A stretch of DNA of 20,000 nucleotides from an uncultured virus (IMG/VR IMGVR_UViG_3300029998_000015) (IMGVR_UViG_3300029998_000015); one strand, 5' to 3'. Shown: positions 8,251 to 20,000, counted from the first letter of the stretch. Numbers and translations: made by a program. The notes: a model not told the origin generated them from the sequence alone.

Positions 8251-8907
8251 ATGATTAAAAAATTTTCAAATTTTAAATTATTGAAAGAAAATCCAAGTTA
8301 TATACGTGATGAAAATGGTGATAAGCTATGTGATATGGATGATTTAGATTCTAAACCTTTTTATTGCGATGTAAATGATAAACACACAAATGTATTAAAT
8401 GTGTATTTTGGTGAGTTTAAAGATTCTCATTTTAATGCAGGTTCTGAAATAGATAATCCAAGTTATCCTGGAAGATTATGGACAAAAAGTAAAATAATTT
8501 CTTTTTGGACATATCCTAATGTGGAATTGTTTAAATCTATAATTAAAAAAATAGAGAGTGAATTAAAAATTAAAATTTTTAATAATGGTTGGAGAATAGA
8601 AGTAGTTAGAATGAATGGTGAAATAGTAAATACTGAGTACAGTGAAGATAACGATGATTATTATAATTCTGATGTAGATTTTGATATGGAAGATTTAATT
8701 TCTATTGATAATTATTCAGGTTCAGAAAATGTACCAGAAAGAGAAAAATTGTGGCATTTAATGAATGCAAAGGAAAAATCAGATAAAATAGCATCAGGTA
8801 ATCGTCCTCAAATATATGGTGGTTCTTATAAAACAGCTTGGGGTACAATGAATGACATTAGATGGAGACAAGCAAAATATTCATCTGAGGGAAAACATTA
8901 TAAATAA
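8251..8907 (+). CDS. Hypothetical protein with N-terminal MIKKF..F.L..E leader
   Basis: 218-aa ORF; core YPGRLWTKSKIISFWTYP; family not recognised. Confidence 0.8.
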   Translation: MIKKFSNFKLLKENPSYIRDENGDKLCDMDDLDSKPFYCDVNDKHTNVLNVYFGEFKDSHFNAGSEIDNPSYPGRLWTKSKIISFWTYPNVELFKSIIKKIESELKIKIFNNGWRIEVVRMNGEIVNTEYSEDNDDYYNSDVDFDMEDLISIDNYSGSENVPEREKLWHLMNAKEKSDKIASGNRPQIYGGSYKTAWGTMNDIRWRQAKYSSEGKHYK

Positions 8908-8967
8908 TTTATTATTAAAAAAGGAAATCTAAAATTTTATATATAAAAACAAAAATAATTTCGTAGA

Positions 8968-10404
8968 ATGAAAACATTAAAAAATTATGATCATTTTTCT
9001 AAAGAATATAGAGAAAATGAAAGTGTAAAAATAAATGAAAATGTATTTTCTGATATTTTAAACAAGGTTGTTGGATTCTTCAAACAACATTTTGGGAAAC
9101 ATGCTTGGGTATATTATGCTTTGTATTTACAGAAAAAGGGAAAATTACCAAGAGGCATAGAATTTATATGTCCAACAGCGTATGCGAGTACATCAGATTT
9201 ACCTTCTGATAAAGAAATTGAAGAGTCAGGAGTAGAAACAGAATTAGAAACAGTAGAAGATGAGAAAACAGAAGAAATTCCTGGACTTAAAGGATCTGAT
9301 GAAACTCCTGGAAATAATGATGAAGAGGAAAAAGTAGTTAATGATGAAATTGAAGAATTGGAAAAAGTCAAAGAAAGCTTAAAAAATTTATATTTAAATG
9401 AAGGAGTTCTTGATGATAATGAAGATTTTGTTGGATTAGATCATCCAGATCCAACTGTACGTAATGAAGATGTTGCTGAATTAAAACATGAAGTAATTAA
9501 ACTTTATAATATGAATTCACTTAGGGCAGGAAGACATCAAGCAGAAGGTGATAAAGGAACAGAATATGTAAGAAGAAAGACTAATGCAATATTTATTTGG
9601 GGTGCTCCTGGAATTGGTAAAACTGAAATTTTGCATCAAGTTGCGAGAGAACTAGAAATTGCGGTAATTGAATGGCATCTATCACAAATTGAACCAACTG
9701 ACTTTAGAGGTATTCCTAGAATTGAAAATGTAATGGGAACTGATGATCCAAAAGATGAAAGAACAGTTTGGAAGTTACCAACAATATTTCCTACAAGTGA
9801 TGGAAAAAATGGAAAAGGTGGTATTATGTTTTTTGACGAAATGAATAGAGCACCACAAATGGTTCTTGATGCTTCATTGTCATTAGCATTAAGTGGTAAA
9901 CATGGTAGTTATGAATTACCTCCACATTGGATAGTTATTGCAGCAGGTAATAGAGGTTCTGATTTGAGTTCAGGTGATTTAACAGAAGATAAAATTTTAT
10001 GGAATAGATTTCAACATATCAATTTTTCTCCAAAACCTTCAGATTGGATTGGATATGCAAAAAACATAAAATCAATTAATCCTAAACTTATACAATTTAT
10101 TAAAGAAAATCCAGAATATTATCACAGATTAAAAACTGTTGATCAAGCTCCTAATTGGACATCACCAAGAACTTGGGAAATGGCATCAGAAGAAGATTAT
10201 TTTGAAAGAGGATTTGATTGGAAAAATAGATTATCATATGAAGAAGTAAAAGATATATATGAAGATTTTGTTGGATACGCTAGTGCAGTTGCATTTGTAA
10301 ATTTTCTTAAAAAATTAGATGAAAAAGAACGTGAGGAAGAAAGAAAGAAAAATCCAGAAGGTAAATCAAAAAGAGGAGATGCTCGTGAAAACGATATGTT
10401 ATAA
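8968..10404 (+). CDS. MoxR/AAA_5-like AAA+ ATPase, paralog 1
   Basis: Walker A GAPGIGKT, Walker B MFFDEMNRA, sensor I AAGN, arginine finger NRF, SPRTW sensor II. Confidence 0.9.
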   Translation: MKTLKNYDHFSKEYRENESVKINENVFSDILNKVVGFFKQHFGKHAWVYYALYLQKKGKLPRGIEFICPTAYASTSDLPSDKEIEESGVETELETVEDEKTEEIPGLKGSDETPGNNDEEEKVVNDEIEELEKVKESLKNLYLNEGVLDDNEDFVGLDHPDPTVRNEDVAELKHEVIKLYNMNSLRAGRHQAEGDKGTEYVRRKTNAIFIWGAPGIGKTEILHQVARELEIAVIEWHLSQIEPTDFRGIPRIENVMGTDDPKDERTVWKLPTIFPTSDGKNGKGGIMFFDEMNRAPQMVLDASLSLALSGKHGSYELPPHWIVIAAGNRGSDLSSGDLTEDKILWNRFQHINFSPKPSDWIGYAKNIKSINPKLIQFIKENPEYYHRLKTVDQAPNWTSPRTWEMASEEDYFERGFDWKNRLSYEEVKDIYEDFVGYASAVAFVNFLKKLDEKEREEERKKNPEGKSKRGDARENDML

Positions 10405-10424
10405 AAAAATAAAAATATAATAAA

Positions 10425-11960
10425 ATGATAAAGAAATACGATAGTTATTCTGAAGAATATAAATTAAATGAGAATATATTAACAAATGCGTGGAACAAGT
10501 TAAATAGTTATTTCAAATCCAAATTTGGTAAAAATGCATGGTTGTATTATTCAAAATATTTAAAAGATAAAGGTGAAATTCCAACCTATGTAGATGAGGA
10601 TGGAAAAACTAGAGATGTTGTTGAAATAATTATTCCTGACAATTATCTTAATAATTTAAAAGGTGATAAATCTCCAACAGCAGAAGAAATTGAATCTGAA
10701 ATACGTTCAAGATTCAATGATAAAGGTGAAAAAATTGAAAAAGGAAATAGTGTAGATGAAGCAATGGTAACTTTGAATTATCCAAGTGGTGATGAAGAAG
10801 TGATGAGAAATGTTAATGTAGAGAAGCTTAGAGAAAGGGTTAAAAGAGTTTATAATATGAATTTACATAGAGCAGGAAAACATGAGCAAGAGAATTATGA
10901 TAAAGGATCAGAATTTGCTAGAAAAAAAACTCATGCATTGTTTATTTGGGGTGCTCCTGGAATTGGTAAAACTGAGATTTTACATCAAGTTGCTAAAGAT
11001 TTAGATATTGTTGTTCAAGAATGGCATTTATCACAAATTGAGCCTACTGACTTTAGAGGTGTTCCTAAAATAGAAAATGATAAAACAGTATCTAAATTAC
11101 CTGCTATATTTCCTACAAGTGATGGAAATGGAAAAGGTGGTATAATGTTTTTTGATGAAATGAATAGAGCACCACAAATGGTTCTTAGTGCATCATTGGC
11201 ATTGGCATTGAGTGGTAGTCATGGTGATTATGATTTACCTCCAAGGTGGATTATTATTGCAGCAGGTAATAGAAAAGATGATATCGATACTACTGATTTG
11301 ACTGATGATCCAATTTTATGGAATCGTTTTGCTCATGTTAATTATTCTCCATCTGTTGATGATTGGGTTAAATATGCATTATCAAGAAAAGATATAAATC
11401 CGTTTCTTATTTCATATTTACAATATCATCCTAATTACTTTCATAGATTGGATAAGGAATCTAAAAGTCCAGGTTGGGCATCTCCAAGAACATGGGAAAT
11501 GGCATCACAAGATGAATTTAATGAAAGAAGTGAAGATTGGGCTAATAAATTATCATATCCAGAAATTCAAAATATTTATACTAAATATGTAGGATTAGAA
11601 GCAGCTATGGATTTTGTTAATTATATGAAATTACAGGAATTCTTCAGTGAAAAAGATATTCAAGATATATATGATGGTAATGAAAGATCTAAAAATGTTA
11701 AATGGCCAACTAGACAAGATCAAATTAGAGCTTGCTCTATTGCAATTGCCACATTTAAACAAGGTAAACATATTTCAAAAGAAGAAGTTAAAAATGTATA
11801 TGAATTTGCTACAAGAGGAAAAGAAAATGAAGCAATTGTTGCAATAGCATCTTATTTTGTAAAAGCTCATCCATATATTAAAACTGAATATCAAGACGTG
11901 TGGTTAGATTTTGCTAAAAGATGGCATGTAGTACTACAAAAAACTATGGCAGGAGAATAA
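10425..11960 (+). CDS. MoxR/AAA_5-like AAA+ ATPase, paralog 2, with C-terminal helical extension
   Basis: Same motifs: GAPGIGKT, FFDEMNRA, AAGN, NRF, SPRTW. Confidence 0.9.
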   Translation: MIKKYDSYSEEYKLNENILTNAWNKLNSYFKSKFGKNAWLYYSKYLKDKGEIPTYVDEDGKTRDVVEIIIPDNYLNNLKGDKSPTAEEIESEIRSRFNDKGEKIEKGNSVDEAMVTLNYPSGDEEVMRNVNVEKLRERVKRVYNMNLHRAGKHEQENYDKGSEFARKKTHALFIWGAPGIGKTEILHQVAKDLDIVVQEWHLSQIEPTDFRGVPKIENDKTVSKLPAIFPTSDGNGKGGIMFFDEMNRAPQMVLSASLALALSGSHGDYDLPPRWIIIAAGNRKDDIDTTDLTDDPILWNRFAHVNYSPSVDDWVKYALSRKDINPFLISYLQYHPNYFHRLDKESKSPGWASPRTWEMASQDEFNERSEDWANKLSYPEIQNIYTKYVGLEAAMDFVNYMKLQEFFSEKDIQDIYDGNERSKNVKWPTRQDQIRACSIAIATFKQGKHISKEEVKNVYEFATRGKENEAIVAIASYFVKAHPYIKTEYQDVWLDFAKRWHVVLQKTMAGE

Positions 11961-11981
11961 TTAAAAAAATAAAATTTTAAA

Positions 11982-13490
11982 ATGATAAAAAAATTCAATG
12001 CATTTAATTTTTTGAGTATAAATGAAGATTTTACTGATCCAAAATTAAATAAATTAGCTAAAGGTAAAGTCAGAGCAGCATTAACATCTGTGATGGCTTA
12101 CTATAATTTCTTTGCAGATTTGTTTTTTCAATTGAATATTGCGGAAGCTGCACCTGGAAGTGGAATAGACACTATGGCAACTGATGGTAAAAATATTTTA
12201 TATAATACGAATTTTGTTAATAATGTATTAAAAAATACTGAAGAAGTAGCATTTGTGTTGATACACGAAGTTATGCACAATGCGAATCTTCACTTTATAA
12301 GACAAGGGGATAGAAATCATGATTTGTGGAATCAAGCTGCTGATTATGCTATTAATCTTCAAATATCTGATATGAGTAAAGAAACACCAGATAATGCAAC
12401 CAGTAAGCCTGATATATTGAGAGTACCATCTAATATTTTATTGGATGAAAAATATCGTGATATGAGTGCTGAACAAATTTATGTAGTTCTTGAAAAAGAA
12501 GAAAATGCAAAACCAAAAAAACCAGGAAAACCTGGACAGGGACAACCTGGACAGGGACAGCCTGGACAAGGACAGCCTGGACAAGGACAGCCTGGACAAG
12601 GACAACCTGGACAAGGACAACCTGGACAAGGACAGCCTGGACAAGGACAACCAGACAATTCAGTTCCAGGAGTAGGAGATTTAAGAGCGCCAGGTAGTTT
12701 AGATGACAAAAAAGGTGCAACGTTATTTGAAGGTAGTGATGAACTTTCAGATATTAAAGATCCAGGGGATTTGGCTAAAAAGTGGGGACAAATATTAAAT
12801 AATGCAAAAAGTAATAATCAAGGAACTGGATCACAATCATTAAATAGATGGTTTAATAAAATTGGAAAACCAAAAGTTAATTGGAGATCAGCATTGGTTA
12901 AATTTATGAATAAATGTTTTTCAAGTAATCCTAAATATGGTTATTTTAATAAAAGATTTATTGGACAAGATGACCCATTGTATTTACCAGGATTAAAATA
13001 TCCTAAAGATAGTGGATTTAGAACTGTCGTATTATGTATTGATACATCAGGTTCTATTGGTGATGAGACACTTGGTAGATTTGCAACTGAAATTTATGGT
13101 ATTTTCGGTACAAAGAAAATAGAAGAAGCTATAATTATTTGGTGTGATGACGCAGTGGCAGGAATTGAAAGGATTAATCTTAAAACAAAGAGTGGTGATT
13201 CAATGAATGAAAGTAAATTTAAAGAAATTCTTGGTAAACACTTTAAAGCAAAAGGTGGTGGTGGTACAAGTTTTATCCCACCGTTTCAATGGATAGAGAA
13301 AAATTTAATATCTAAAGGAACTGTTCCATCATTTGTTATATATTTTACTGATGCTATGGGTACTGCTCCAGACAAATTTAAATTTAGTATTCCTAAGTAT
13401 TTTGATAAAATATTATGGGTGATTACTGATACTCAAGAAGCACCACATATAAAATGGCCTCCTGATAATAAATTATTTATTGATAAATAA
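11982..13490 (+). CDS. DUF2201-like protein: N-terminal HExxH metallopeptidase, low-complexity linker, C-terminal VWA domain
   Basis: TMATDG, LIHEVMHNANLH, WNQAADYAIN, MIDAS DTSGS, GGGGTSF, YFTD; the usual neighbour of this ATPase class. Confidence 0.9.
   Translation: MIKKFNAFNFLSINEDFTDPKLNKLAKGKVRAALTSVMAYYNFFADLFFQLNIAEAAPGSGIDTMATDGKNILYNTNFVNNVLKNTEEVAFVLIHEVMHNANLHFIRQGDRNHDLWNQAADYAINLQISDMSKETPDNATSKPDILRVPSNILLDEKYRDMSAEQIYVVLEKEENAKPKKPGKPGQGQPGQGQPGQGQPGQGQPGQGQPGQGQPGQGQPGQGQPDNSVPGVGDLRAPGSLDDKKGATLFEGSDELSDIKDPGDLAKKWGQILNNAKSNNQGTGSQSLNRWFNKIGKPKVNWRSALVKFMNKCFSSNPKYGYFNKRFIGQDDPLYLPGLKYPKDSGFRTVVLCIDTSGSIGDETLGRFATEIYGIFGTKKIEEAIIIWCDDAVAGIERINLKTKSGDSMNESKFKEILGKHFKAKGGGGTSFIPPFQWIEKNLISKGTVPSFVIYFTDAMGTAPDKFKFSIPKYFDKILWVITDTQEAPHIKWPPDNKLFIDK
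12531..12650 (+). repeat. Eight tandem 15-bp units encoding (PGQGQ)8
   Basis: cctggaca[ag]ggaca[ag] x8; varies only at Gln third positions. Confidence 0.95.
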
Positions 13491-13520
13491 AAAAAAATCC
13501 TGAGAAATCAGGATTTTTTT
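13491..13520. terminator. Bidirectional intrinsic terminator
   Basis: AAAAAAATCCTGA-GAAA-TCAGGATTTTTTT between convergent genes. Confidence 0.85.
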
Positions 13521-14049
13521 ATATGTTAAATTTAGATGAATTGTCTTTAATTTCTTTATCAGTAATATATTTATTATATTCATTTGGTAATTCATATTGT
13601 ATCATTTTATATAATTCCTTTCTAAATTTATCTGATATTCTATCATTATCATCTATTACATCAAATATATTTTCATTTCTACCATATTCATAAAATAAAT
13701 TTGCTCCTGATTTTATGCATATTCTTGATGATTCTAATAAATTTAGTTTATCTGTTTTTTTATTATACCAATTTATACTATTATATAAAAATGATGTTAT
13801 TATATCAACAGTTAGTCCAAATTCAATGAATAAATTTAATATATTTATATTTATGTTTTCTATCTTATTTATAAGATTCATTACTATTGGTTCTCTTCCT
13901 TGCTTTGTGTTTGGATCGAATTCTTTAATAAATAATTTTTTTATCTTATCTGAATCATTATTGTTAATATATTCTAGCATTAAAAATAATTGATCATCAT
14001 CATCTAAAAACATCTCTATGTATGTTTCATATTGTTTTAAATATTTCAT
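13519..14049 (-). CDS. Degenerate ankyrin-repeat-like protein, dual-tagged (MKYLKQYE...SSKFNI)
   Basis: IKKLFIKEFDPN, LFIEFGL and CIKSGANL repeats; GRNENIFD matches EGENFYD of the neighbouring gene. Confidence 0.65.
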   Translation of the reverse strand: MKYLKQYETYIEMFLDDDDQLFLMLEYINNNDSDKIKKLFIKEFDPNTKQGREPIVMNLINKIENININILNLFIEFGLTVDIITSFLYNSINWYNKKTDKLNLLESSRICIKSGANLFYEYGRNENIFDVIDDNDRISDKFRKELYKMIQYELPNEYNKYITDKEIKDNSSKFNI

Positions 14050-14053
14050 ATGA

Positions 14054-14090
14054 TTATATATAATTTTATATTTATGAAAATTATATATAG
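14054..14090. promoter_or_regulatory. Back-to-back AAAATTATATATA motifs between divergent genes
   Basis: Minus-strand copy 14054-14067 and plus-strand copy 14077-14090. Confidence 0.45.
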
Positions 14091-14115
14091 TTATAATAAA
14101 AATTTAAAATTTAAA

Positions 14116-14700
14116 ATGAAATATTTAAGATTATTTGAAAGATTGGTAAAAGAACCACCATTTATATCATCAGCAAGAAAAGGAAGTACTAATGCAGTAA
14201 AACAAGCATTAAAAGATGGTGAAGATGTTAATATGAAAGATTCAGATGAAAAAACAGCATTGATGCACGCTGTAAAATTTCCATTTGTTGTTGATGCATT
14301 GATTGAAGGTAAAGCAGATGTTAATGAGAAAGATAGAAATGGTATTACTGCATTGATGATGGCTTCTACCCCAACAGTTATAAATAAATTATTAAATGCT
14401 AAAGCAGATGTAAATATGCAAGATATAAATGGTGAAACTGCAATAATGAGATATTTGTCTTGCTTTTATGATTCTGGTACATTTATTTCAATATTAGAAA
14501 AATTTTTAAAATCTGGATTAAATCTTGATATTAAGAATAATGAAGGTGAGAATTTTTATGATTTAATGATGGGATTTAAGGAATATAATAGTCATAAACA
14601 AGATTATATAAATGATATTGAAATATACATAAACAATAAATTTCCAAAATATAAAAAAGATTTTGATTTAAAAACTGATATAAATAAATTCAATGTTTAA
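14116..14700 (+). CDS. Ankyrin-repeat protein, dual-tagged (MKYLRLFE...DINKFNV)
   Basis: GEDVNMKDSDEKTALMHA, ADVNEKDRNGITALMMA, ADVNMQDINGETAIM; start moved to 14116 to match the family leader and avoid the promoter region. Confidence 0.9.
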   Translation: MKYLRLFERLVKEPPFISSARKGSTNAVKQALKDGEDVNMKDSDEKTALMHAVKFPFVVDALIEGKADVNEKDRNGITALMMASTPTVINKLLNAKADVNMQDINGETAIMRYLSCFYDSGTFISILEKFLKSGLNLDIKNNEGENFYDLMMGFKEYNSHKQDYINDIEIYINNKFPKYKKDFDLKTDINKFNV

Positions 14701-14709
14701 TTATTAAAT

Positions 14710-14734
14710 AAAGCCTGTAAAAAATACAGGTTTT
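14710..14734. terminator. Bidirectional intrinsic terminator
   Basis: AAAGCCTGTA-n5-TACAGGTTTT between convergent genes. Confidence 0.7.
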
Positions 14735-14978
14735 ATTCGTTTATAATAATCATATTAGTTTGAGAAATAGGTAATCTAGCAACAGGAACAACTGAATATC
14801 TACCACTTGTTGCAGTGTTTATTTCCTTTTTTTGCATAAATTCATAATAACCTTCTCTTACAGAAACTGTACTAATATCAATAAAAGAATATTCTGATAT
14901 TATAAGTTCTTTATCAATTGATAATCCGTTATATAAAGTTGTTGTTTTTTCCGATGTATTGAATATTAATGTTTGCAT
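14733..14978 (-). CDS. Hypothetical beta-rich protein, untagged
   Basis: 81-aa ORF with an A-rich leader and a terminator at its end. Confidence 0.7.
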   Translation of the reverse strand: MQTLIFNTSEKTTTLYNGLSIDKELIISEYSFIDISTVSVREGYYEFMQKKEINTATSGRYSVVPVARLPISQTNMIIINE

Positions 14979-15058
14979 TTTTTATTTTTTATATAAAAAT
15001 AAAAAATAAAAGTTTTGTAATTATTTTTTTTTATATATATTGAAAATTCATCATATAA

Positions 15059-15400
15059 ATGAAATATATTAAAAAATTTGAAATTAACATTGAAGATTCA
15101 ATAAAAAAAATTCATGAAGATATGGCTAGAAAGATATTAGATTATAAAAAATATTATGATAAGTATGTTATATTTGAATATCAGAAGGATTTTTATCTTG
15201 CTAAATTTATTTTAATTGATGTGTTTGATCGTGTTGTTCTTGAAATTTATGAATATGATTTCACTAATTTTATTTTTAGCACAAAAAGGACTGATATATT
15301 AACAATTAATGAAATTAATGTGGTATCATCATATGATAGATTAGAAAATGCTAAAAATTCGTATGTATTATTATTAGACACAAAAAAATTCAATGTATGA
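15059..15400 (+). CDS. Hypothetical protein, dual-tagged (MKYIKKFE...DTKKFNV)
   Basis: ORF preceded by TTATATATA; shared terminal motifs. Confidence 0.8.
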   Translation: MKYIKKFEINIEDSIKKIHEDMARKILDYKKYYDKYVIFEYQKDFYLAKFILIDVFDRVVLEIYEYDFTNFIFSTKRTDILTINEINVVSSYDRLENAKNSYVLLLDTKKFNV

Positions 15401-15732
15401 TAACTATATTTGAAAAATATAATACACCAGATTTAAGAAGAGTTGATGATATTTTGATGTGCATAAAAAATTATAAAGGTAAAGTTATAAATTTTGAAAA
15501 AGACAAAAGTTATAAAGTTTGCGGTTTTTATGGTAGTCCACAAGATGCAATAGAAAAATATAATATTTTAGATTATTTACCAATTGAATGCATTGATAAA
15601 GTCGTTATGTTTGATGATAAAAAAAATAAAATAGAGTTTAATGTGAATAGTTATTATAATCACTTACCAGATTTTTTAGATTATTTTTATGTTCCAGAAT
15701 TTACAAATGATACACACAAATATAATATATAA
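15397..15732 (+). CDS. Hypothetical protein, dual-tagged (MITIFE...DTHKYNI)
   Basis: 4-bp ATGA overlap with the upstream gene; shared terminal motifs. Confidence 0.8.
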   Translation: MITIFEKYNTPDLRRVDDILMCIKNYKGKVINFEKDKSYKVCGFYGSPQDAIEKYNILDYLPIECIDKVVMFDDKKNKIEFNVNSYYNHLPDFLDYFYVPEFTNDTHKYNI

Positions 15733-15735
15733 TTA

Positions 15736-16554
15736 ATGAGAAAAATATTTGAATTTAAAGTTTTTGATATACTACAAGACAAAGAAAATGTTAAGTTTTT
15801 AGATAAAGTAAAAAAAGAAAATTTTGAATTATATACAAAATTTTTAAATTTAATTGGTAATAAAGGACTTGATGTAGCTAAGCAAAAATATGAAGAATTT
15901 GATCCTGAATACAAAAAAAGGATGAATGAAATAGAGAAAGAAATAAATAAAAATCTTAAAAAAATAGATAATAAGAAATATAAAGAAAAAGAGAATGAAA
16001 GAATATTAAATGAATATAAATCTGAAATTGAAGAAATTGAAGAAATTATTTATTCATCTGAATTATATAATGTTGATTCTTATATTTATAATGATAAAAA
16101 TATATCAAAATACTTTAATGATTCTAATATAAAAACTAAGAATTCTAATGATTTTGATAAGTTGTTAAAATCTCCAAGTAATTTAGGCTATGAATTATGG
16201 GAATTTTTTCACACTGATACTATATTATATGAACTAAATAAAATAAATATTTATAATAAAAATACTTGGATATTGAAAATTCATCAGTATTACAATTTAA
16301 GTACAAAAGAATTAAAATATTCAATACATTTTGATACTGATATAATTGATGAGTATTATACACCAAATATAGATAAATCTAAAAATCCAAAATTTATAAA
16401 TTATAGAAATTCAAATATCAATAAACTAAGTAAATACACTAGAATTGATATTGATATGGTTTATGAAACACTAGGTAAATATTCAAATATGCTAAGTGAT
16501 AAATATTATAATGATTGGAAAGTTATAAATGATACTAGCAAATATAATATATAA
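15736..16554 (+). CDS. Hypothetical protein with charged coiled-coil region, dual-tagged (MRKIFE...DTSKYNI)
   Basis: 272-aa ORF; K/E-rich helical segment; shared terminal motifs. Confidence 0.8.
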   Translation: MRKIFEFKVFDILQDKENVKFLDKVKKENFELYTKFLNLIGNKGLDVAKQKYEEFDPEYKKRMNEIEKEINKNLKKIDNKKYKEKENERILNEYKSEIEEIEEIIYSSELYNVDSYIYNDKNISKYFNDSNIKTKNSNDFDKLLKSPSNLGYELWEFFHTDTILYELNKINIYNKNTWILKIHQYYNLSTKELKYSIHFDTDIIDEYYTPNIDKSKNPKFINYRNSNINKLSKYTRIDIDMVYETLGKYSNMLSDKYYNDWKVINDTSKYNI

Positions 16555-16657
16555 AGAGATTTAAGAGACTTAACAATTAAAATGACTAACTCATTATGAA
16601 TTATAATTAAATTGAATGGTCATCATTAAAAATAGTAAATAAAATAAAGAAAAGAGT

Positions 16658-17815
16658 ATGATAACAAAGTTTGAAAAATTTAAATTATTTGAAAGCTCAG
16701 ATAGTGCAAAATATGATTTGATTCATGATTTTTTAGATGATAGCTATATATATGATTATTATGATGAACATTATTTGAGTGATTATGATCAAAGTGATGT
16801 CGTAGATATAATAGAATCTAATCCAAATATAATATCAGGTGTTTTTGATAATGATAAATATATAAAAAGTATTATTAGAGATAGTATGAATAATCAAAAT
16901 ATTGGAGATTTCGATGCATATGAATATAAAGAATATATTAATAATCATTTAACAAGAGAAAAAGAAAACAAAATAATTGAGTTATATTATGATAATAATG
17001 ATGATGAAAATATGATTATTAAAACAGAATATGATGGTATAGTATCGATTTCAGACGAAGACGGAGTAAAAACGGTTATGATTACTGAAGATGATACTAC
17101 TGAGGAATATGAAATTCCTGATAATTTTAATATAGTAGTTGAAGAAGGTGATGAAATTAATTATAATACTATTATTGCAAGAAATGATGATATTGAATAT
17201 GATTCTGATATGATAGATGACTTAGATTCTGATCAATTAAAAGATATAATAACAGATGAAAATGAAGAAGGTGAGTTTTTAGAAGAAACTATTACAAAAA
17301 GATATGAGGATAAAACTTTCATAGAAATAATGGAAGAAGAGAAAAGTGTAGATTCTTATGAAGAATTAATTGATAATATGACTCCTAAAAAATTTTATGA
17401 ATATTATAGCTCTTTTATTGATATTGATAAACTTGTAAAAAATTATAAAAAATATGAAGATTCTGATAGTAAATATGATTGGGTGGAGTCTAAAATTCCA
17501 GATAGTATAGAAATTCAACATTATCTGATGGACAATTCTAAGGATTCAAATAATCTTACTTTGCTGCTATTTGAAATATTTGAAGATAAAGGTGATCACT
17601 CAGATGATATATCAGATGAGTATGAATTTCAAAAAAGATATATAGAAGAATATATAAAGGAAAATGGATATGATGATAGTACAGAAGATGAAAAAGGAGA
17701 TTTGATAGCTGAAGCTTTAAAAGATTTGAACTCCAATTTTGTATTAGATTCTCAAATAAAAACAGAATTTAATAAATATATGTTTATTGTAGATTCTGAT
17801 AAATTTAATATGTAA
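16658..17815 (+). CDS. Highly acidic protein with an inserted sandwich-barrel-hybrid-like domain, dual-tagged (MITKFEKFKLFE...DSDKFNM)
   Basis: D/E-rich throughout; segment TEYDGIVSI...EYEIPDNFNIVVEEGDEI. Confidence 0.8.
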   Translation: MITKFEKFKLFESSDSAKYDLIHDFLDDSYIYDYYDEHYLSDYDQSDVVDIIESNPNIISGVFDNDKYIKSIIRDSMNNQNIGDFDAYEYKEYINNHLTREKENKIIELYYDNNDDENMIIKTEYDGIVSISDEDGVKTVMITEDDTTEEYEIPDNFNIVVEEGDEINYNTIIARNDDIEYDSDMIDDLDSDQLKDIITDENEEGEFLEETITKRYEDKTFIEIMEEEKSVDSYEELIDNMTPKKFYEYYSSFIDIDKLVKNYKKYEDSDSKYDWVESKIPDSIEIQHYLMDNSKDSNNLTLLLFEIFEDKGDHSDDISDEYEFQKRYIEEYIKENGYDDSTEDEKGDLIAEALKDLNSNFVLDSQIKTEFNKYMFIVDSDKFNM

Positions 17816-17817
17816 AT

Positions 17818-18396
17818 ATGATAACAAATTTTAATATTTTTGAAAAAATTGATTATTATGATAATAATGGTAACCTTATATATTCGAATAATAATGGTGA
17901 TGTTATTAGATCTAATAAACCGAATGTTAATAATTATAGTGATGAATTTTGGAAATTTATAACTGTCGCTAATTGGAATAAAATAATTAAAACTAAGGAT
18001 GAATTTGAAAATAAAGATAAAGAAGAAGAATTAAAATTGAAAATAAGAGTATTCAAAAATTTTGAATACGATACCATTATAAATTTTAGAAAGGAATATG
18101 ATAAGTTAACAGAAGAACTTTATTTATATTTTAAACCTACTTGGTTAGATAATAAATATTCAACCTTTATGCCATCAGATGACGGATATTTTGACTTAAT
18201 AAGTTCTGTTATAGGAAAAGGAGAATTTTTTATTAAGAGATGTATAAATAATCACAAACTATTTGCTGATATGGCTAAAAATAATGAATATGTAGAAAAC
18301 TTTGGATATATTTTTCAAACCACTTGGAAAGAATATGATGAAATTAATACTAAATATTATCCTTTATATAGAGATTCTAAAAAATTTAATTTATAA
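17818..18396 (+). CDS. DUF4240-like protein, dual-tagged (MITNFNIFE...DSKKFNL)
   Basis: DEFWKFI...SDDGYFDLISSVIGKG...ENFGY pattern; family recalled from memory, moderate certainty. Confidence 0.6.
   Translation: MITNFNIFEKIDYYDNNGNLIYSNNNGDVIRSNKPNVNNYSDEFWKFITVANWNKIIKTKDEFENKDKEEELKLKIRVFKNFEYDTIINFRKEYDKLTEELYLYFKPTWLDNKYSTFMPSDDGYFDLISSVIGKGEFFIKRCINNHKLFADMAKNNEYVENFGYIFQTTWKEYDEINTKYYPLYRDSKKFNL

Positions 18397-18428: not shown

Positions 18429-20000
<1,572 letters not shown>

What the first reader, a model, noticed from the sequence alone, without database searches (positions are those of the whole stretch)
13519..18396. Seven neighbouring, mostly unrelated proteins share an extreme C-terminal tag [DN]xxK[FY]N[ILVM]-stop
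Seen: the C-termini are IKDNSSKFNI, LKTDINKFNV, LLLDTKKFNV, FTNDTHKYNI, VINDTSKYNI, FIVDSDKFNM and LYRDSKKFNL. Position -10 is hydrophobic in all seven and -12 is aromatic in five. The bodies differ: two ankyrin-like, a small barrel, a coiled-coil, an acidic protein and a DUF4240-like protein. The genes lie on both strands and the codons vary, so conservation is at protein level. No other gene called here ends this way. Inference: a portable C-terminal recognition signal for sorting, docking, unfolding or ejection of a cargo class, such as virion-delivered effectors. I do not recognise it as a named signal.
Basis: partly seen in the sequence, partly recalled or inferred. Interest (0 to 1): 0.9.

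Follow-up and report, generated by a model that had tools for sequence, protein, structure and literature searches.

The report
Portable C-terminal address tag, giant phage
About one gene in ten of this uncultured giant bacterial virus ends in the same four amino acids (Lys-Phe/Tyr-Asn-Ile/Leu) whatever the rest of the protein is, which looks like an undescribed address label whose reader is still unknown.

Summary
All seven C-termini are as described. In the 235-kb record, 41 of 396 likely genes end in K[FY]N[ILVM]-stop, against 0.1-0.2 expected. In a 330-kb relative it is 102 of 573. Synonymous codons vary freely, so conservation is at protein level. The motif is strictly terminal: 260 perfect tags against 2 displaced copies. 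It sits behind a roughly 14-17-residue amphipathic module. It nearly always comes with an 8-residue N-terminal leader, MK[YH][LI]Kx[FY]E. Bodies are mostly unrelated: an SH3-like barrel, ankyrin, LRR, DUF4240, DMP19-like and acidic proteins. The lineage is T4-like. The records are only 33-46% complete, which implies genomes of about 700 kb. No relative was found in 50,697 deposited phage records, and no paper with the motif was found. Tagged units carry the TATATATA upstream motif that tail-fibre genes carry, not the TAnnTTTG motif. My best guess (0.4) is a second address signal, alongside a T4 CTS-like leader, that loads small binder proteins into the virion. The receptor is unknown and no head genes were found. 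Rivals are docking to the phage's ClpC/ClpP, external decoration, or a plain family scaffold.

The parts
13519..14049 (-). Tagged gene 1 (176 aa, helical, no Pfam hit). Leader MKYLKQYE at 14026-14049, tag KFNI at 13522-13533, stop at 13519-13521.
   Evidence: Followed by a hairpin of -11.3 kcal/mol.
14116..14700 (+). Tagged gene 2 (ankyrin repeats, 194 aa from the ATG at 14116; leader MKYLRLFE). Tag KFNV at 14686-14697.
   Evidence: Pfam Ank_2 2.1e-13. Terminator-like hairpin downstream, -14.0 kcal/mol.
15059..15400 (+). Tagged gene 3 (113 aa; leader MKYIKKFE). Tag KFNV at 15386-15397. Its stop overlaps the next start (ATGA).
   Evidence: TATATATA at 15032-15039, 27 nt before the ATG.
15397..15732 (+). 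Tagged gene 4 (111 aa; leader variant MITIFEKY). Tag KYNI at 15718-15729.
15736..16554 (+). Tagged gene 5 (272 aa, Lys/Glu-rich, coiled-coil-like; leader variant MRKIFEFKVF). Tag KYNI at 16540-16551.
   Evidence: No Pfam or PHROG hit.
16658..17815 (+). Tagged gene 6 (385 aa, very acidic; leader MITKFEKF). Tag KFNM at 17801-17812.
   Evidence: No Pfam or PHROG hit.
17818..18396 (+). Tagged gene 7 (192 aa, DUF4240-like; leader MITNFNIFE). Tag KFNL at 18382-18393. The Pfam domain covers residues 42-169, so both leader and C-terminal module lie outside it.
   Evidence: Hairpin downstream, -13.5 kcal/mol.
8251..13490 (+). Four neighbouring genes that carry the N-terminal leader but no C-terminal tag: an unknown 218-aa protein, two MoxR-type AAA ATPases, and a DUF2201 metallopeptidase/VWA protein.
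   Evidence: MIKKFSNF, MKTLKNYD, MIKKYDSY, MIKKFNAF; Pfam; N-only list.

Best explanation
The tetrapeptide K-[F/Y]-N-[I/L/V/M]-COOH, together with the amphipathic stretch in front of it (E/D at -14 and -13, an aromatic or Leu at -12, Leu/Ile at -10, D/N at -7, T/S/A at -6), is a portable peptide signal read at protein level by a common receptor that needs the free C-terminus. It is the second half of a two-part address. The first half is an 8-residue N-terminal leader, M-K-[Y/H]-[L/I]-K-x-[F/Y]-E. Leader and tag have been placed on many unrelated small bodies, mostly acidic protein-binding ones (SH3-like barrels, ankyrin, LRR, DMP19-like, DUF4240), in a T4-like lineage of very large, AT-rich phages. 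Up to here the account is shown. What follows is inferred. The address most likely loads these proteins into the assembling virion, as the T4 capsid targeting sequence loads the polymorphic internal proteins into the prohead core. The leader would play the part of the CTS: hydrophobic residues at 4 and 7, then an invariant Glu at 8 as a possible cut site for a Glu-specific prohead protease. The C-terminal tag would give a second contact or sub-address, comparable to the C-terminal propeptide of T4 Alt. The cargo would then be ejected into the host with the DNA as an arsenal of binders and inhibitors.
For: Shown. (1) Enrichment: 41 of 396 genes against 0.1-0.2 expected; 102 of 573 in a 330-kb relative; up to 27 of 38 genes in single 20-kb loci of other relatives. 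(2) Protein-level selection. In this genome TTC is used in 11 of 36 Phe against 17% background. In relatives the tag's Asn uses AAC in 60 of 134 against 12% background, and Phe codons are at background. Leader codons are also at background. (3) Strict terminal position: among 1313 distinct proteins, 260 carry perfect tags, 23 are three-of-four near misses, and only 2 motifs are displaced from the end. Internal copies are at chance. (4) Portability. With termini trimmed, only 4 BLASTP pairs link the 41 bodies. Pfam finds Ank and DUF4240 here and LRR (8), Ank (4) and DMP19-like (1) among 54 tagged proteins of relatives. The DUF4240 match ends 23 residues before the C-terminus. (5) The leader is disordered (residues 1-11, pLDDT under 50) and the last block has low confidence (pLDDT 50), on an otherwise fair model of mean pLDDT 77.6. 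(6) Hierarchy: the tag nearly always comes with the leader (91 of 102; 32 of 41), whereas 31 leader-bearing genes here lack the tag. Circumstantial support for virion loading. [quoted passage not shown] In the CTS, targeting sits at residues 4 and 7 and processing at 8 and 10; gp21 and the phiKZ-type proteases cut after Glu; Alt has propeptides at both ends (PMC9026906, passages). The leader here has L/I at 4, F/Y at 7 and Glu at 8 in 78 of 79, and conservation stops at that point. (8) The lineage is T4-like: gp32, UvsW, PolB, topoisomerase II and PhoH in the relative; UvsX-like and gp5-like hub here. (9) Unit-first tagged genes carry TATATATA about 22-33 nt before the ATG, as the collagen-like tail-fibre and baseplate genes do, and not TAnnTTTG: 8 against 1 here, compared with 13 against 20 for small untagged genes (p 0.02); 9 against 0, compared with 29 against 54, in the relative (p 1.9e-4). 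(10) In relatives the tagged arrays lie beside tail-fibre-like genes.
Against: No capsid, portal, scaffold, terminase or gp21-type protease gene was recognised in this record or in 10 related fragments. The records are only 6-46% complete, so nothing shows that these proteins are in virions. The scale is uncomfortable: 10-18% of all genes would be capsid cargo. The leader also sits on MoxR ATPases, a VWA/metallopeptidase, a nucleotidase and an HD protein. About 70% of tagged proteins are acidic (median pI 5.4-5.8), whereas T4 internal proteins are basic (PMC9026906). The leader's x-[F/Y]-E does not fit T4's L/I-x-E or phiKZ's S/A-x-E. No capsid-targeting signal that needs the extreme C-terminus is known to me; such strict end-anchoring is more typical of receptors that read a free carboxylate. 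That TATATATA marks late genes is inferred from its neighbours and from its likeness to the T4 late promoter (recalled), not measured.
Confidence: 0.4

Rival explanations
1. Docking to an AAA+ protease. The tag would be a C-terminal degron, or an SspB-type tether, read by the phage's own ClpC/ClpP (with ClpS) or by a host unfoldase. Tagged proteins would then be either timed substrates or adaptors that bring host proteins to destruction.
For: The tag must be at the very end and finishes with a hydrophobic residue after a basic one, as ssrA-, MuA- and SspB-type signals do (recalled). This record encodes ClpS, a ClpC-type ATPase (E 8e-218 to S. aureus ClpC), ClpP (6.5e-54) and DnaJ, and the relative encodes Hsp70. 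Ankyrin, LRR and SH3-like bodies are what substrate-recruiting adaptors look like.
Against: ClpS and ClpP sit behind the TAnnTTTG motif, while tagged units sit behind TATATATA, so they may not be expressed together. Making 100-200 proteins only to degrade them is hard to justify. ClpS and AAA_2 were not found in 5 related fragments, but those are 9-46% complete, so this carries no weight.
Confidence: 0.15
2. External virion decoration. Leader and tag would dock small binder modules onto a common site on the capsid surface or tail fibres, giving particles a mixed set of adhesins.
For: The upstream motif is shared with tail-fibre genes, and tagged arrays lie next to tail-fibre-like genes in relatives. 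The bodies are binding folds.
Against: No docking partner is known. Acidic DMP19-like and DUF4240-like bodies are not obvious adhesins. The number of different modules is very large.
Confidence: 0.12
3. No separate receptor. Leader and C-terminal module would be the conserved ends of one old, fast-diverging protein family, kept because they close or oligomerise the fold, and the different bodies would be divergence or insertions inside that frame.
For: The largest subgroup is one family: an SH3-like barrel with a VGDY motif. It gave 2519 hits at E <= 1e-3 among 1.84 billion representatives, and 141 of the best 150 end in the tag. The helix before the tag is modelled with fair confidence.
Against: Ank, LRR and DUF4240 are independent, widespread families whose domain limits exclude leader and tag. 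The leader occurs without the tag on enzymes. The leader is modelled as disordered and does not pair with the C-terminus. The all-or-none, end-anchored pattern fits a read signal better than a fold element.
Confidence: 0.15
4. Import into, or tethering at, another phage-made site in the infected cell, such as a replication or assembly compartment or a hub protein. This would be analogous to the peroxisomal pair PTS1 (C-terminal tripeptide) and PTS2 (N-terminal nonapeptide).
For: Two short end-anchored signals on folded, unrelated proteins, with one usable without the other.
Against: No compartment or receptor gene is known for T4-like phages. No chimallin or tubulin-like family appeared in the Pfam scans, though the records are incomplete and I did not check whether Pfam holds models for them.
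Confidence: 0.1
5. A nucleotide-level signal: the codons AAA TTT AAT ATA TAA would act as a promoter, a start region for the next gene, or a recombination site.
For: 23 of 41 tags abut or overlap the next start. AATATATAA resembles the TATATATA motif. Lys is always AAA in this genome (41 of 41 against 89% background).
Against: 18 of 41 tags have no coupled gene downstream, and 6 are followed by strong hairpins. Asn AAC is used in 45% of relatives' tags, which breaks the DNA motif. F/Y and I/L/V/M exchanges keep the chemistry but not the bases.
Confidence: 0.03

Closest known systems
Capsid targeting sequence (CTS) of phage T4 internal proteins IPI-III and Alt
   Same: A short terminal peptide shared by otherwise unrelated, fast-evolving small proteins of a T4-type phage. 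In the CTS the key hydrophobic residues are at 4 and 7, followed by a Glu-dependent processing site, and Alt has propeptides at both ends (PMC3012670 and PMC9026906, passages). The leader found here has that layout.
   Different: The CTS is N-terminal. The finding itself is a C-terminal tetrapeptide that must be the very end of the chain. There are tens to hundreds of carriers per genome instead of a handful. The carriers are mostly acidic. The cut motif does not match L/I-x-E. Neither a protease nor virion presence is shown.
Encapsulin cargo-loading peptides and microcompartment encapsulation peptides
   Same: Short terminal peptides, often an amphipathic helix at a C-terminus, that load unrelated cargo into a protein shell; encapsulin shells have the phage-capsid fold (recalled, not tested here).
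   Different: Those peptides tolerate trailing residues and have other sequences. Here the motif is end-anchored (260 against 2) and no shell partner is identified.
C-terminal recognition signals of bacterial AAA+ proteases and their adaptors (ssrA tag, MuA tail, the ClpX-binding tail of SspB)
   Same: Extreme C-terminal position, a basic residue followed by hydrophobic last residues, and a Clp system encoded by the same phage; the comparison motifs are recalled.
   Different: The sequence differs. The tag is paired with an N-terminal leader. Its genes carry a different upstream motif from the clp genes.
Class II PDZ ligands (hydrophobic-x-hydrophobic-COOH) and the peroxisomal PTS1/PTS2 pair
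   Same: [F/Y]-N-[I/L]-COOH fits hydrophobic-x-hydrophobic at a free C-terminus. A C-terminal signal of 3-4 residues combined with an N-terminal signal of 8-9 residues on folded cargo mirrors PTS1/PTS2 (recalled).
   Different: No PDZ or TPR receptor was found in the Pfam scans of this record. Bacterial PDZ proteins are mostly periplasmic, and these proteins have no export signal.

Membership tests
T4-type capsid targeting sequence / internal proteins | N-terminal peptide of about 10 residues with targeting residues at positions 4 and 7 | tested here: met
   This applies to the co-occurring leader, not to the C-terminal tag. L/I at 4, F/Y at 7, and sharp loss of conservation after residue 8 in 79 canonical leaders. 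The criterion is from PMC9026906.
T4-type capsid targeting sequence / internal proteins | Removal by a gp21-family prohead protease at L/I-x-E (S/A-x-E in phiKZ) | tested here: not met
   The leader ends x-[F/Y]-E, so only the Glu at P1 fits. No Peptidase_S77 match in this record or in 5 relatives, but the records are 9-46% complete.
T4-type capsid targeting sequence / internal proteins | Carrier proteins are present inside the virion and are ejected | not testable with these tools
   No cultured member and no proteome.
T4-type capsid targeting sequence / internal proteins | The phage belongs to the T4-like group | tested here: met
   gp32, UvsW_N, PolB, topoisomerase II and PhoH in the 330-kb relative; UvsX-like recombinase (phrog_97, 5.9e-58) and gp5-type hub here. 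No Gp23 match.
C-terminal degron or adaptor tail of Clp-type proteases | Signal at the extreme C-terminus with hydrophobic last residues | tested here: met
   260 terminal against 2 displaced copies. The last residue is I/L/V/M in all 41.
C-terminal degron or adaptor tail of Clp-type proteases | Binding to, or degradation by, a cognate unfoldase | not testable with these tools
   ClpC, ClpS and ClpP are encoded. No binding test was run with them.
PDZ class II ligand | A PDZ-domain reader in the same compartment | tested here: not met
   No PDZ family among the Pfam hits for 394 proteins of this record or for 142 proteins of the relative. Host proteins were not examined.
Single paralogous family (full-length homology) | Bodies alignable once the ends are removed | tested here: not met
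   4 BLASTP pairs among 41 trimmed bodies at 1e-3. Distinct Pfam families occur: Ank, LRR, DUF4240, DMP19. It is met only within the SH3-like subgroup.

The most novel reading that the evidence does not exclude
A T4-like megaphage lineage runs a two-signal protein-sorting system: an N-terminal octapeptide plus an end-anchored C-terminal tetrapeptide, comparable in logic to PTS2/PTS1. It addresses a hundred or more different small binder proteins per genome to one destination, most likely the capsid interior. Each infection would then deliver a large, rapidly evolving arsenal of pre-made effectors along with the DNA.
Probability: 0.3. Interest if true: 0.9.

Novelty: new variant of a known kind. 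Interest (0 to 1): 0.8.

Why it matters
Portable targeting peptides are rare, useful finds. The T4 CTS became a tool for packing foreign proteins into capsids. A four-residue, end-anchored tag carried by 10-18% of the genes of an uncultured group of very large phages implies a receptor and a destination that nobody has described. It also marks a whole class of several hundred hypothetical proteins (ankyrin, LRR, SH3-like, DNA-mimic-like) as one functional set, probably host-directed binders. The tag is easy to test, by peptide pull-down with a free or blocked C-terminus and by reporter fusions. It gives a simple sequence rule for finding members of this class in metagenomes.

Tried and rejected
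- Nucleotide-level readings (promoter, start region for the next gene, recombination site) were rejected from codon variation and from tags at the ends of transcription units.
- Chance and composition were rejected.
- Full-length homology was rejected for the set as a whole.
- Pfam on 394 proteins and PHROGs on the 41 tagged plus 66 large proteins named no family for the tag-bearing bodies beyond Ank and DUF4240, and found no head genes.
- tblastn of two family members against 50,697 phage records found nothing, and megablast of 12 kb of the window found nothing. The tool warns that records of the same or a very near genome may be left out.
- A scan of 185,579 prokaryote species genomes found no relative.
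- Searches for gp21- and gp23-type families in this record and in 10 related fragments gave only sub-threshold noise.
- ClpS and AAA_2 searches in 5 fragments were empty but uninformative, because the fragments are 9-46% complete.
- Complex prediction with two copies of an SH3-like member returned 'no answer' (score 0.01 against a mark of 0.42). This is not evidence either way.
- The single-sequence model of the ankyrin protein was too poor to use (mean pLDDT 54).
- Foldseek against the PDB gave no match at E <= 0.001. The weak top rows were small barrels (ribosomal protein chains, MazF).
- phmmer of the phrog_20754 'protease' against PDB sequences gave nothing usable.
- Literature searches found no description. 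One search covered the four tetrapeptide strings as whole words and found 0 papers.

Full report
**What is there.** The window is part of a single-contig virus record of 235,318 bp with 24.4% G+C. CheckV rates the record 33% complete. No other ORF of the 56 listed for the window ends in this way. The ankyrin gene is better started at 14116 (MKYLRLFE) than at the first ATG, 14050.

**More than chance.** I built a greedy non-overlapping gene set of 396 ORFs covering 92% of the record.
- 41 end in K[FY]N[ILVM]-stop.
- The expectation is 0.10 from amino-acid frequencies and 0.15 from the composition of the last 20 residues.
- 1000 shuffles of the last 12 residues gave a mean of 0.196 and a maximum of 3.
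- The same tetrapeptide inside proteins is at chance: 13 seen, 18 expected.

The tagged genes lie in clusters across the record, and the window holds one of the larger clusters.

**Protein level, not DNA level.**
- In this genome Phe is TTC in 11 of 36 tags (17% genome-wide), Asn is AAC in 7 of 41, and the last residue uses eight codons. Only Lys is uniform (AAA in 41 of 41 against 89% background).
- In 134 distinct tags from related contigs, Asn is AAC in 60 (45%) against 12% background (p 2.5e-21). Phe and Tyr codons are at background. Lys AAG is mildly depleted, 7 of 134 (p 0.01).
- 23 of 41 tags abut or overlap the next start. The other 18 do not, and 6 of those are followed by hairpins of -11 to -16 kcal/mol.
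- So the tag is not a promoter, a start region or a recombination site. That note is a lead, not independent evidence.

**Anatomy.**
- Relative entropy against the genome's amino-acid background is high at -4 to -1 (K, F/Y, N, I/L) and at -6 (T/S/A).
- It stays above 0.9 bit at -7 (D/N) and at -10 to -14 (L/I; E/K/N; L/Y/F; E/D; E). It is 0.88 bit at -17 and lower at -8, -9, -15 and -16.
- Untagged C-termini show 0.1-0.2 bit. The shared part is therefore a helix-like module of about 14-17 residues ending in the tetrapeptide.
- The motif is all-or-none and end-anchored. Among 1313 distinct proteins from this record, a 330-kb relative and other related loci, 260 have a perfect tag and 23 match three of four positions (KFG[LI] seven times). 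Only 2 have the motif within the last 12 residues but not at the end.

**A second signal.**
- Most tagged proteins begin MK[YH][LI]Kx[FY]E or a variant such as MITxFxx[FY]E.
- With a loose pattern, 32 of 41 tagged and 31 of 355 untagged genes carry it (odds ratio 37, p 1e-21). Several of the nine 'misses' have obvious variants or a mis-called start.
- In 79 canonical leaders, positions 1-8 are nearly fixed and conservation stops after Glu8 (78 of 79). Leader codons vary at background.
- The leader also occurs without the tag, including on the four genes just upstream in the window: two MoxR ATPases, a DUF2201 peptidase/VWA protein and an unknown protein.
- The tag rarely occurs without the leader. 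The order is hierarchical: the leader is general, and the tag marks a subset.

**The bodies.**
- With 12 residues trimmed from each end, BLASTP at 1e-3 links only 4 pairs among the 41.
- Pfam finds ankyrin repeats (two proteins) and DUF4240 (one). In the DUF4240 protein the match covers residues 42-169 of 192, so leader and module lie outside the domain. PHROGs adds nothing.
- The largest subgroup is a family of about 90-120 residues with a VGDY motif. Its AlphaFold model has mean pLDDT 77.6. It is a small barrel followed by a helix (residues 98-113). Residues 1-11 are under pLDDT 50 and the last block is at 50.
- Foldseek gives only weak rows, to small barrels in ribosomal proteins and to MazF.
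- Among 54 longer tagged proteins from related contigs, Pfam finds LRR in 8, ankyrin in 4 and DMP19-like in 1.
- Tagged proteins are small (median 112 aa in relatives) and mostly acidic: 70% have pI below 7, with a median of 5.4-5.8 against 6.5-7.9 for untagged proteins of similar size.

**Spread.**
- A profile of the barrel subgroup finds 2519 proteins at E <= 1e-3 and 459 at E <= 1e-10 among 1.84 billion cluster representatives.
- 141 of the best 150 end in the tag (KYNL is commonest), and they start with the leader.
- Close homologues keep both ends while the middle drifts.
- None of the family was found in 50,697 deposited phage records or in one genome each of 185,579 prokaryote species.
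- Related IMG/VR contigs have 20-27% G+C, and up to 27 of 38 genes in a 20-kb locus are tagged.
- I read a whole 330-kb relative. 102 of its 573 genes are tagged, 91 of those with the leader, and there are 121 leaders in all.
- CheckV rates that contig 46% complete and this record 33% complete, which implies genomes near 700 kb.

**What kind of phage.**
- The relative encodes gp32, UvsW, a split family-B polymerase, topoisomerase II, PhoH and thymidylate synthase. It also encodes Hsp70, IF3, Cas6/Cas3-like proteins and the Thoeris inhibitors Tad3/Tad4.
- This record encodes a UvsX-like recombinase, a gp5-type hub with an M23 peptidase, DnaB, ribonucleotide reductase, a sigma-70 family protein and NusG.
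- It also encodes ClpS, a ClpC-type ATPase, ClpP, DnaJ and peptide deformylase.
- The lineage is therefore T4-like. No capsid, portal, terminase or gp21-type protease was recognised. Given the completeness figures, this says little.

**Expression class.** Two 8-mers are strongly enriched upstream of genes.
- TATCTTTG is enriched 14-fold. It fits TAnnTTTG, which I recall as the -7 element of Bacteroidota promoters. It precedes long arrays of tiny untagged genes, ClpS, ClpP and DNA ligase.
- TATATATA is enriched 11-fold and peaks 22-33 nt before the ATG. It precedes the collagen-like tail-fibre genes and the baseplate block.
- Among genes with at least 35 nt of upstream spacer, tagged genes show TATATATA 8 times and TAnnTTTG once, with 5 showing neither. 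Small untagged genes show 13 and 20 (p 0.02).
- In the 330-kb relative the tagged genes show 9 and 0 (1 both, 9 neither), against 29 and 54 for untagged genes (p 1.9e-4). Leader-only genes show 5 and 0.
- Tagged genes thus share a putative promoter class with structural genes. Calling it 'late' is an inference from its neighbours and from its likeness to the T4 late promoter (recalled).

**How it most likely works.** Shown: a protein-level, portable, strictly C-terminal signal, paired with an N-terminal leader, on many unrelated small binder-type proteins. That pattern implies a common reader.

Inferred: the destination is the virion. The precedent is T4.
- CTS targeting depends on residues 4 and 7 and processing on residues 8 and 10.
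- gp21 cuts after Glu at L/I-x-E, and phiKZ-type proteases cut at S/A-x-E.
- Alt loses propeptides at both ends (PMC9026906, passages).

The leader here has the same layout. The lineage is T4-like, and the genes share the upstream motif of structural genes and lie next to them.

Against this reading:
- The number of carriers is very large.
- The carriers are acidic.
- The leader also sits on ATPases.
- The cut motif does not match known prohead-protease motifs.
- No head genes or proteome are available.
- No capsid-targeting signal is known to need the extreme C-terminus.

I put virion-interior loading at 0.4.

**Rivals.**
- Docking to the phage's ClpC/ClpP or to a host unfoldase, as a degron or an adaptor tail (0.15). 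It fits the end-anchoring and the encoded Clp set, but the clp genes carry the other upstream motif.
- External decoration of the particle (0.12).
- A family frame with no separate reader (0.15). This is weakened by the independent domain families, by the leader occurring alone and by the disordered ends.
- Another intracellular destination (0.1).
- A DNA-level signal (0.03).

**Novelty.** I found no description in three full-text searches, in Pfam or PHROGs, or in deposited phage genomes. The concept is known: portable terminal address peptides such as the T4 CTS, encapsulin and microcompartment peptides, and PTS1/PTS2. This signal, its strict end-anchoring, its pairing with a leader and its scale are not. 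I class it as a new variant of a known kind.

Noticed in passing
G000 93694-96811 (ClpS, ClpC-like), 130390-131145 (ClpP), 63954-64961 (DnaJ), 121360-121794 (peptide deformylase); outside the window: The phage encodes its own ClpS, an 844-aa ClpC-type unfoldase (E 8e-218 to S. aureus ClpC), a ClpP (6.5e-54), DnaJ and peptide deformylase. The 330-kb relative encodes Hsp70. Together this is close to a full proteostasis kit.
   Followed up: partly
G000 216811-222409 and 232809-234001; outside the window: A second, separate paralogous array: 13 tandem genes of 116-168 aa plus two more, sharing an N-terminal block (M.KEELS.WF..KFNSCYPV...FWFYDE.FIRK) with variable C-terminal halves. They carry no KFN tag. 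Copies also lie beside tagged arrays in relatives.
   Followed up: no
whole record; examples at window 15032-15039 and upstream of G000 224662-232392: There are two upstream motif classes. TAnnTTTG (as TATCTTTG, 14-fold enriched) precedes arrays of tiny genes. TATATATA, 22-33 nt before the ATG, precedes tail-fibre, baseplate and tagged genes. The first suggests a Bacteroidota host (recalled promoter consensus).
   Followed up: partly
tags of related contigs (L016-L041): The invariant Asn of the tag uses the rare codon AAC in 45% of cases against 12% background. This may reflect selection for accurate decoding at a critical residue.
   Followed up: no
window 12490-12720, inside the DUF2201/VWA gene 11982-13490: There is a run of about ten PGQGQ repeats between the metallopeptidase-like and VWA-like halves of the protein.
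   Followed up: no
window 19054-19941 (-): An Asn-rich protein built of degenerate repeats of about 11 residues (NN[IF]xSxF...). It has no tag and runs towards the window edge. In the Pfam scan at E <= 1e-4 a 601-aa ORF over this stretch (G000 143364-145169) had only a sub-cutoff CBM_5_12 match.
   Followed up: no
L044-L061 (330-kb relative G001): The relative carries Cas6- and Cas3-like genes, Thoeris inhibitors Tad3 and Tad4, IF3, a histidyl-tRNA synthetase fragment, intein and homing-endonuclease interruptions of IMPDH, RtcB and PolB, and many DUF7487 homing-endonuclease-like genes.
   Followed up: no
P0011 (243 aa, metagenome protein): A two-unit fusion of the barrel family. The first unit's tag is lost (…DASKLQVNIISKKL), and the second unit's leader follows without its Met. 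The fused protein keeps a tag only at its true end.
   Followed up: no
G000 16091-16492: A leader-bearing protein ends in KFRI. Relatives have seven proteins ending in KFG[LI]. These are rare near-miss variants of the tag.
   Followed up: no
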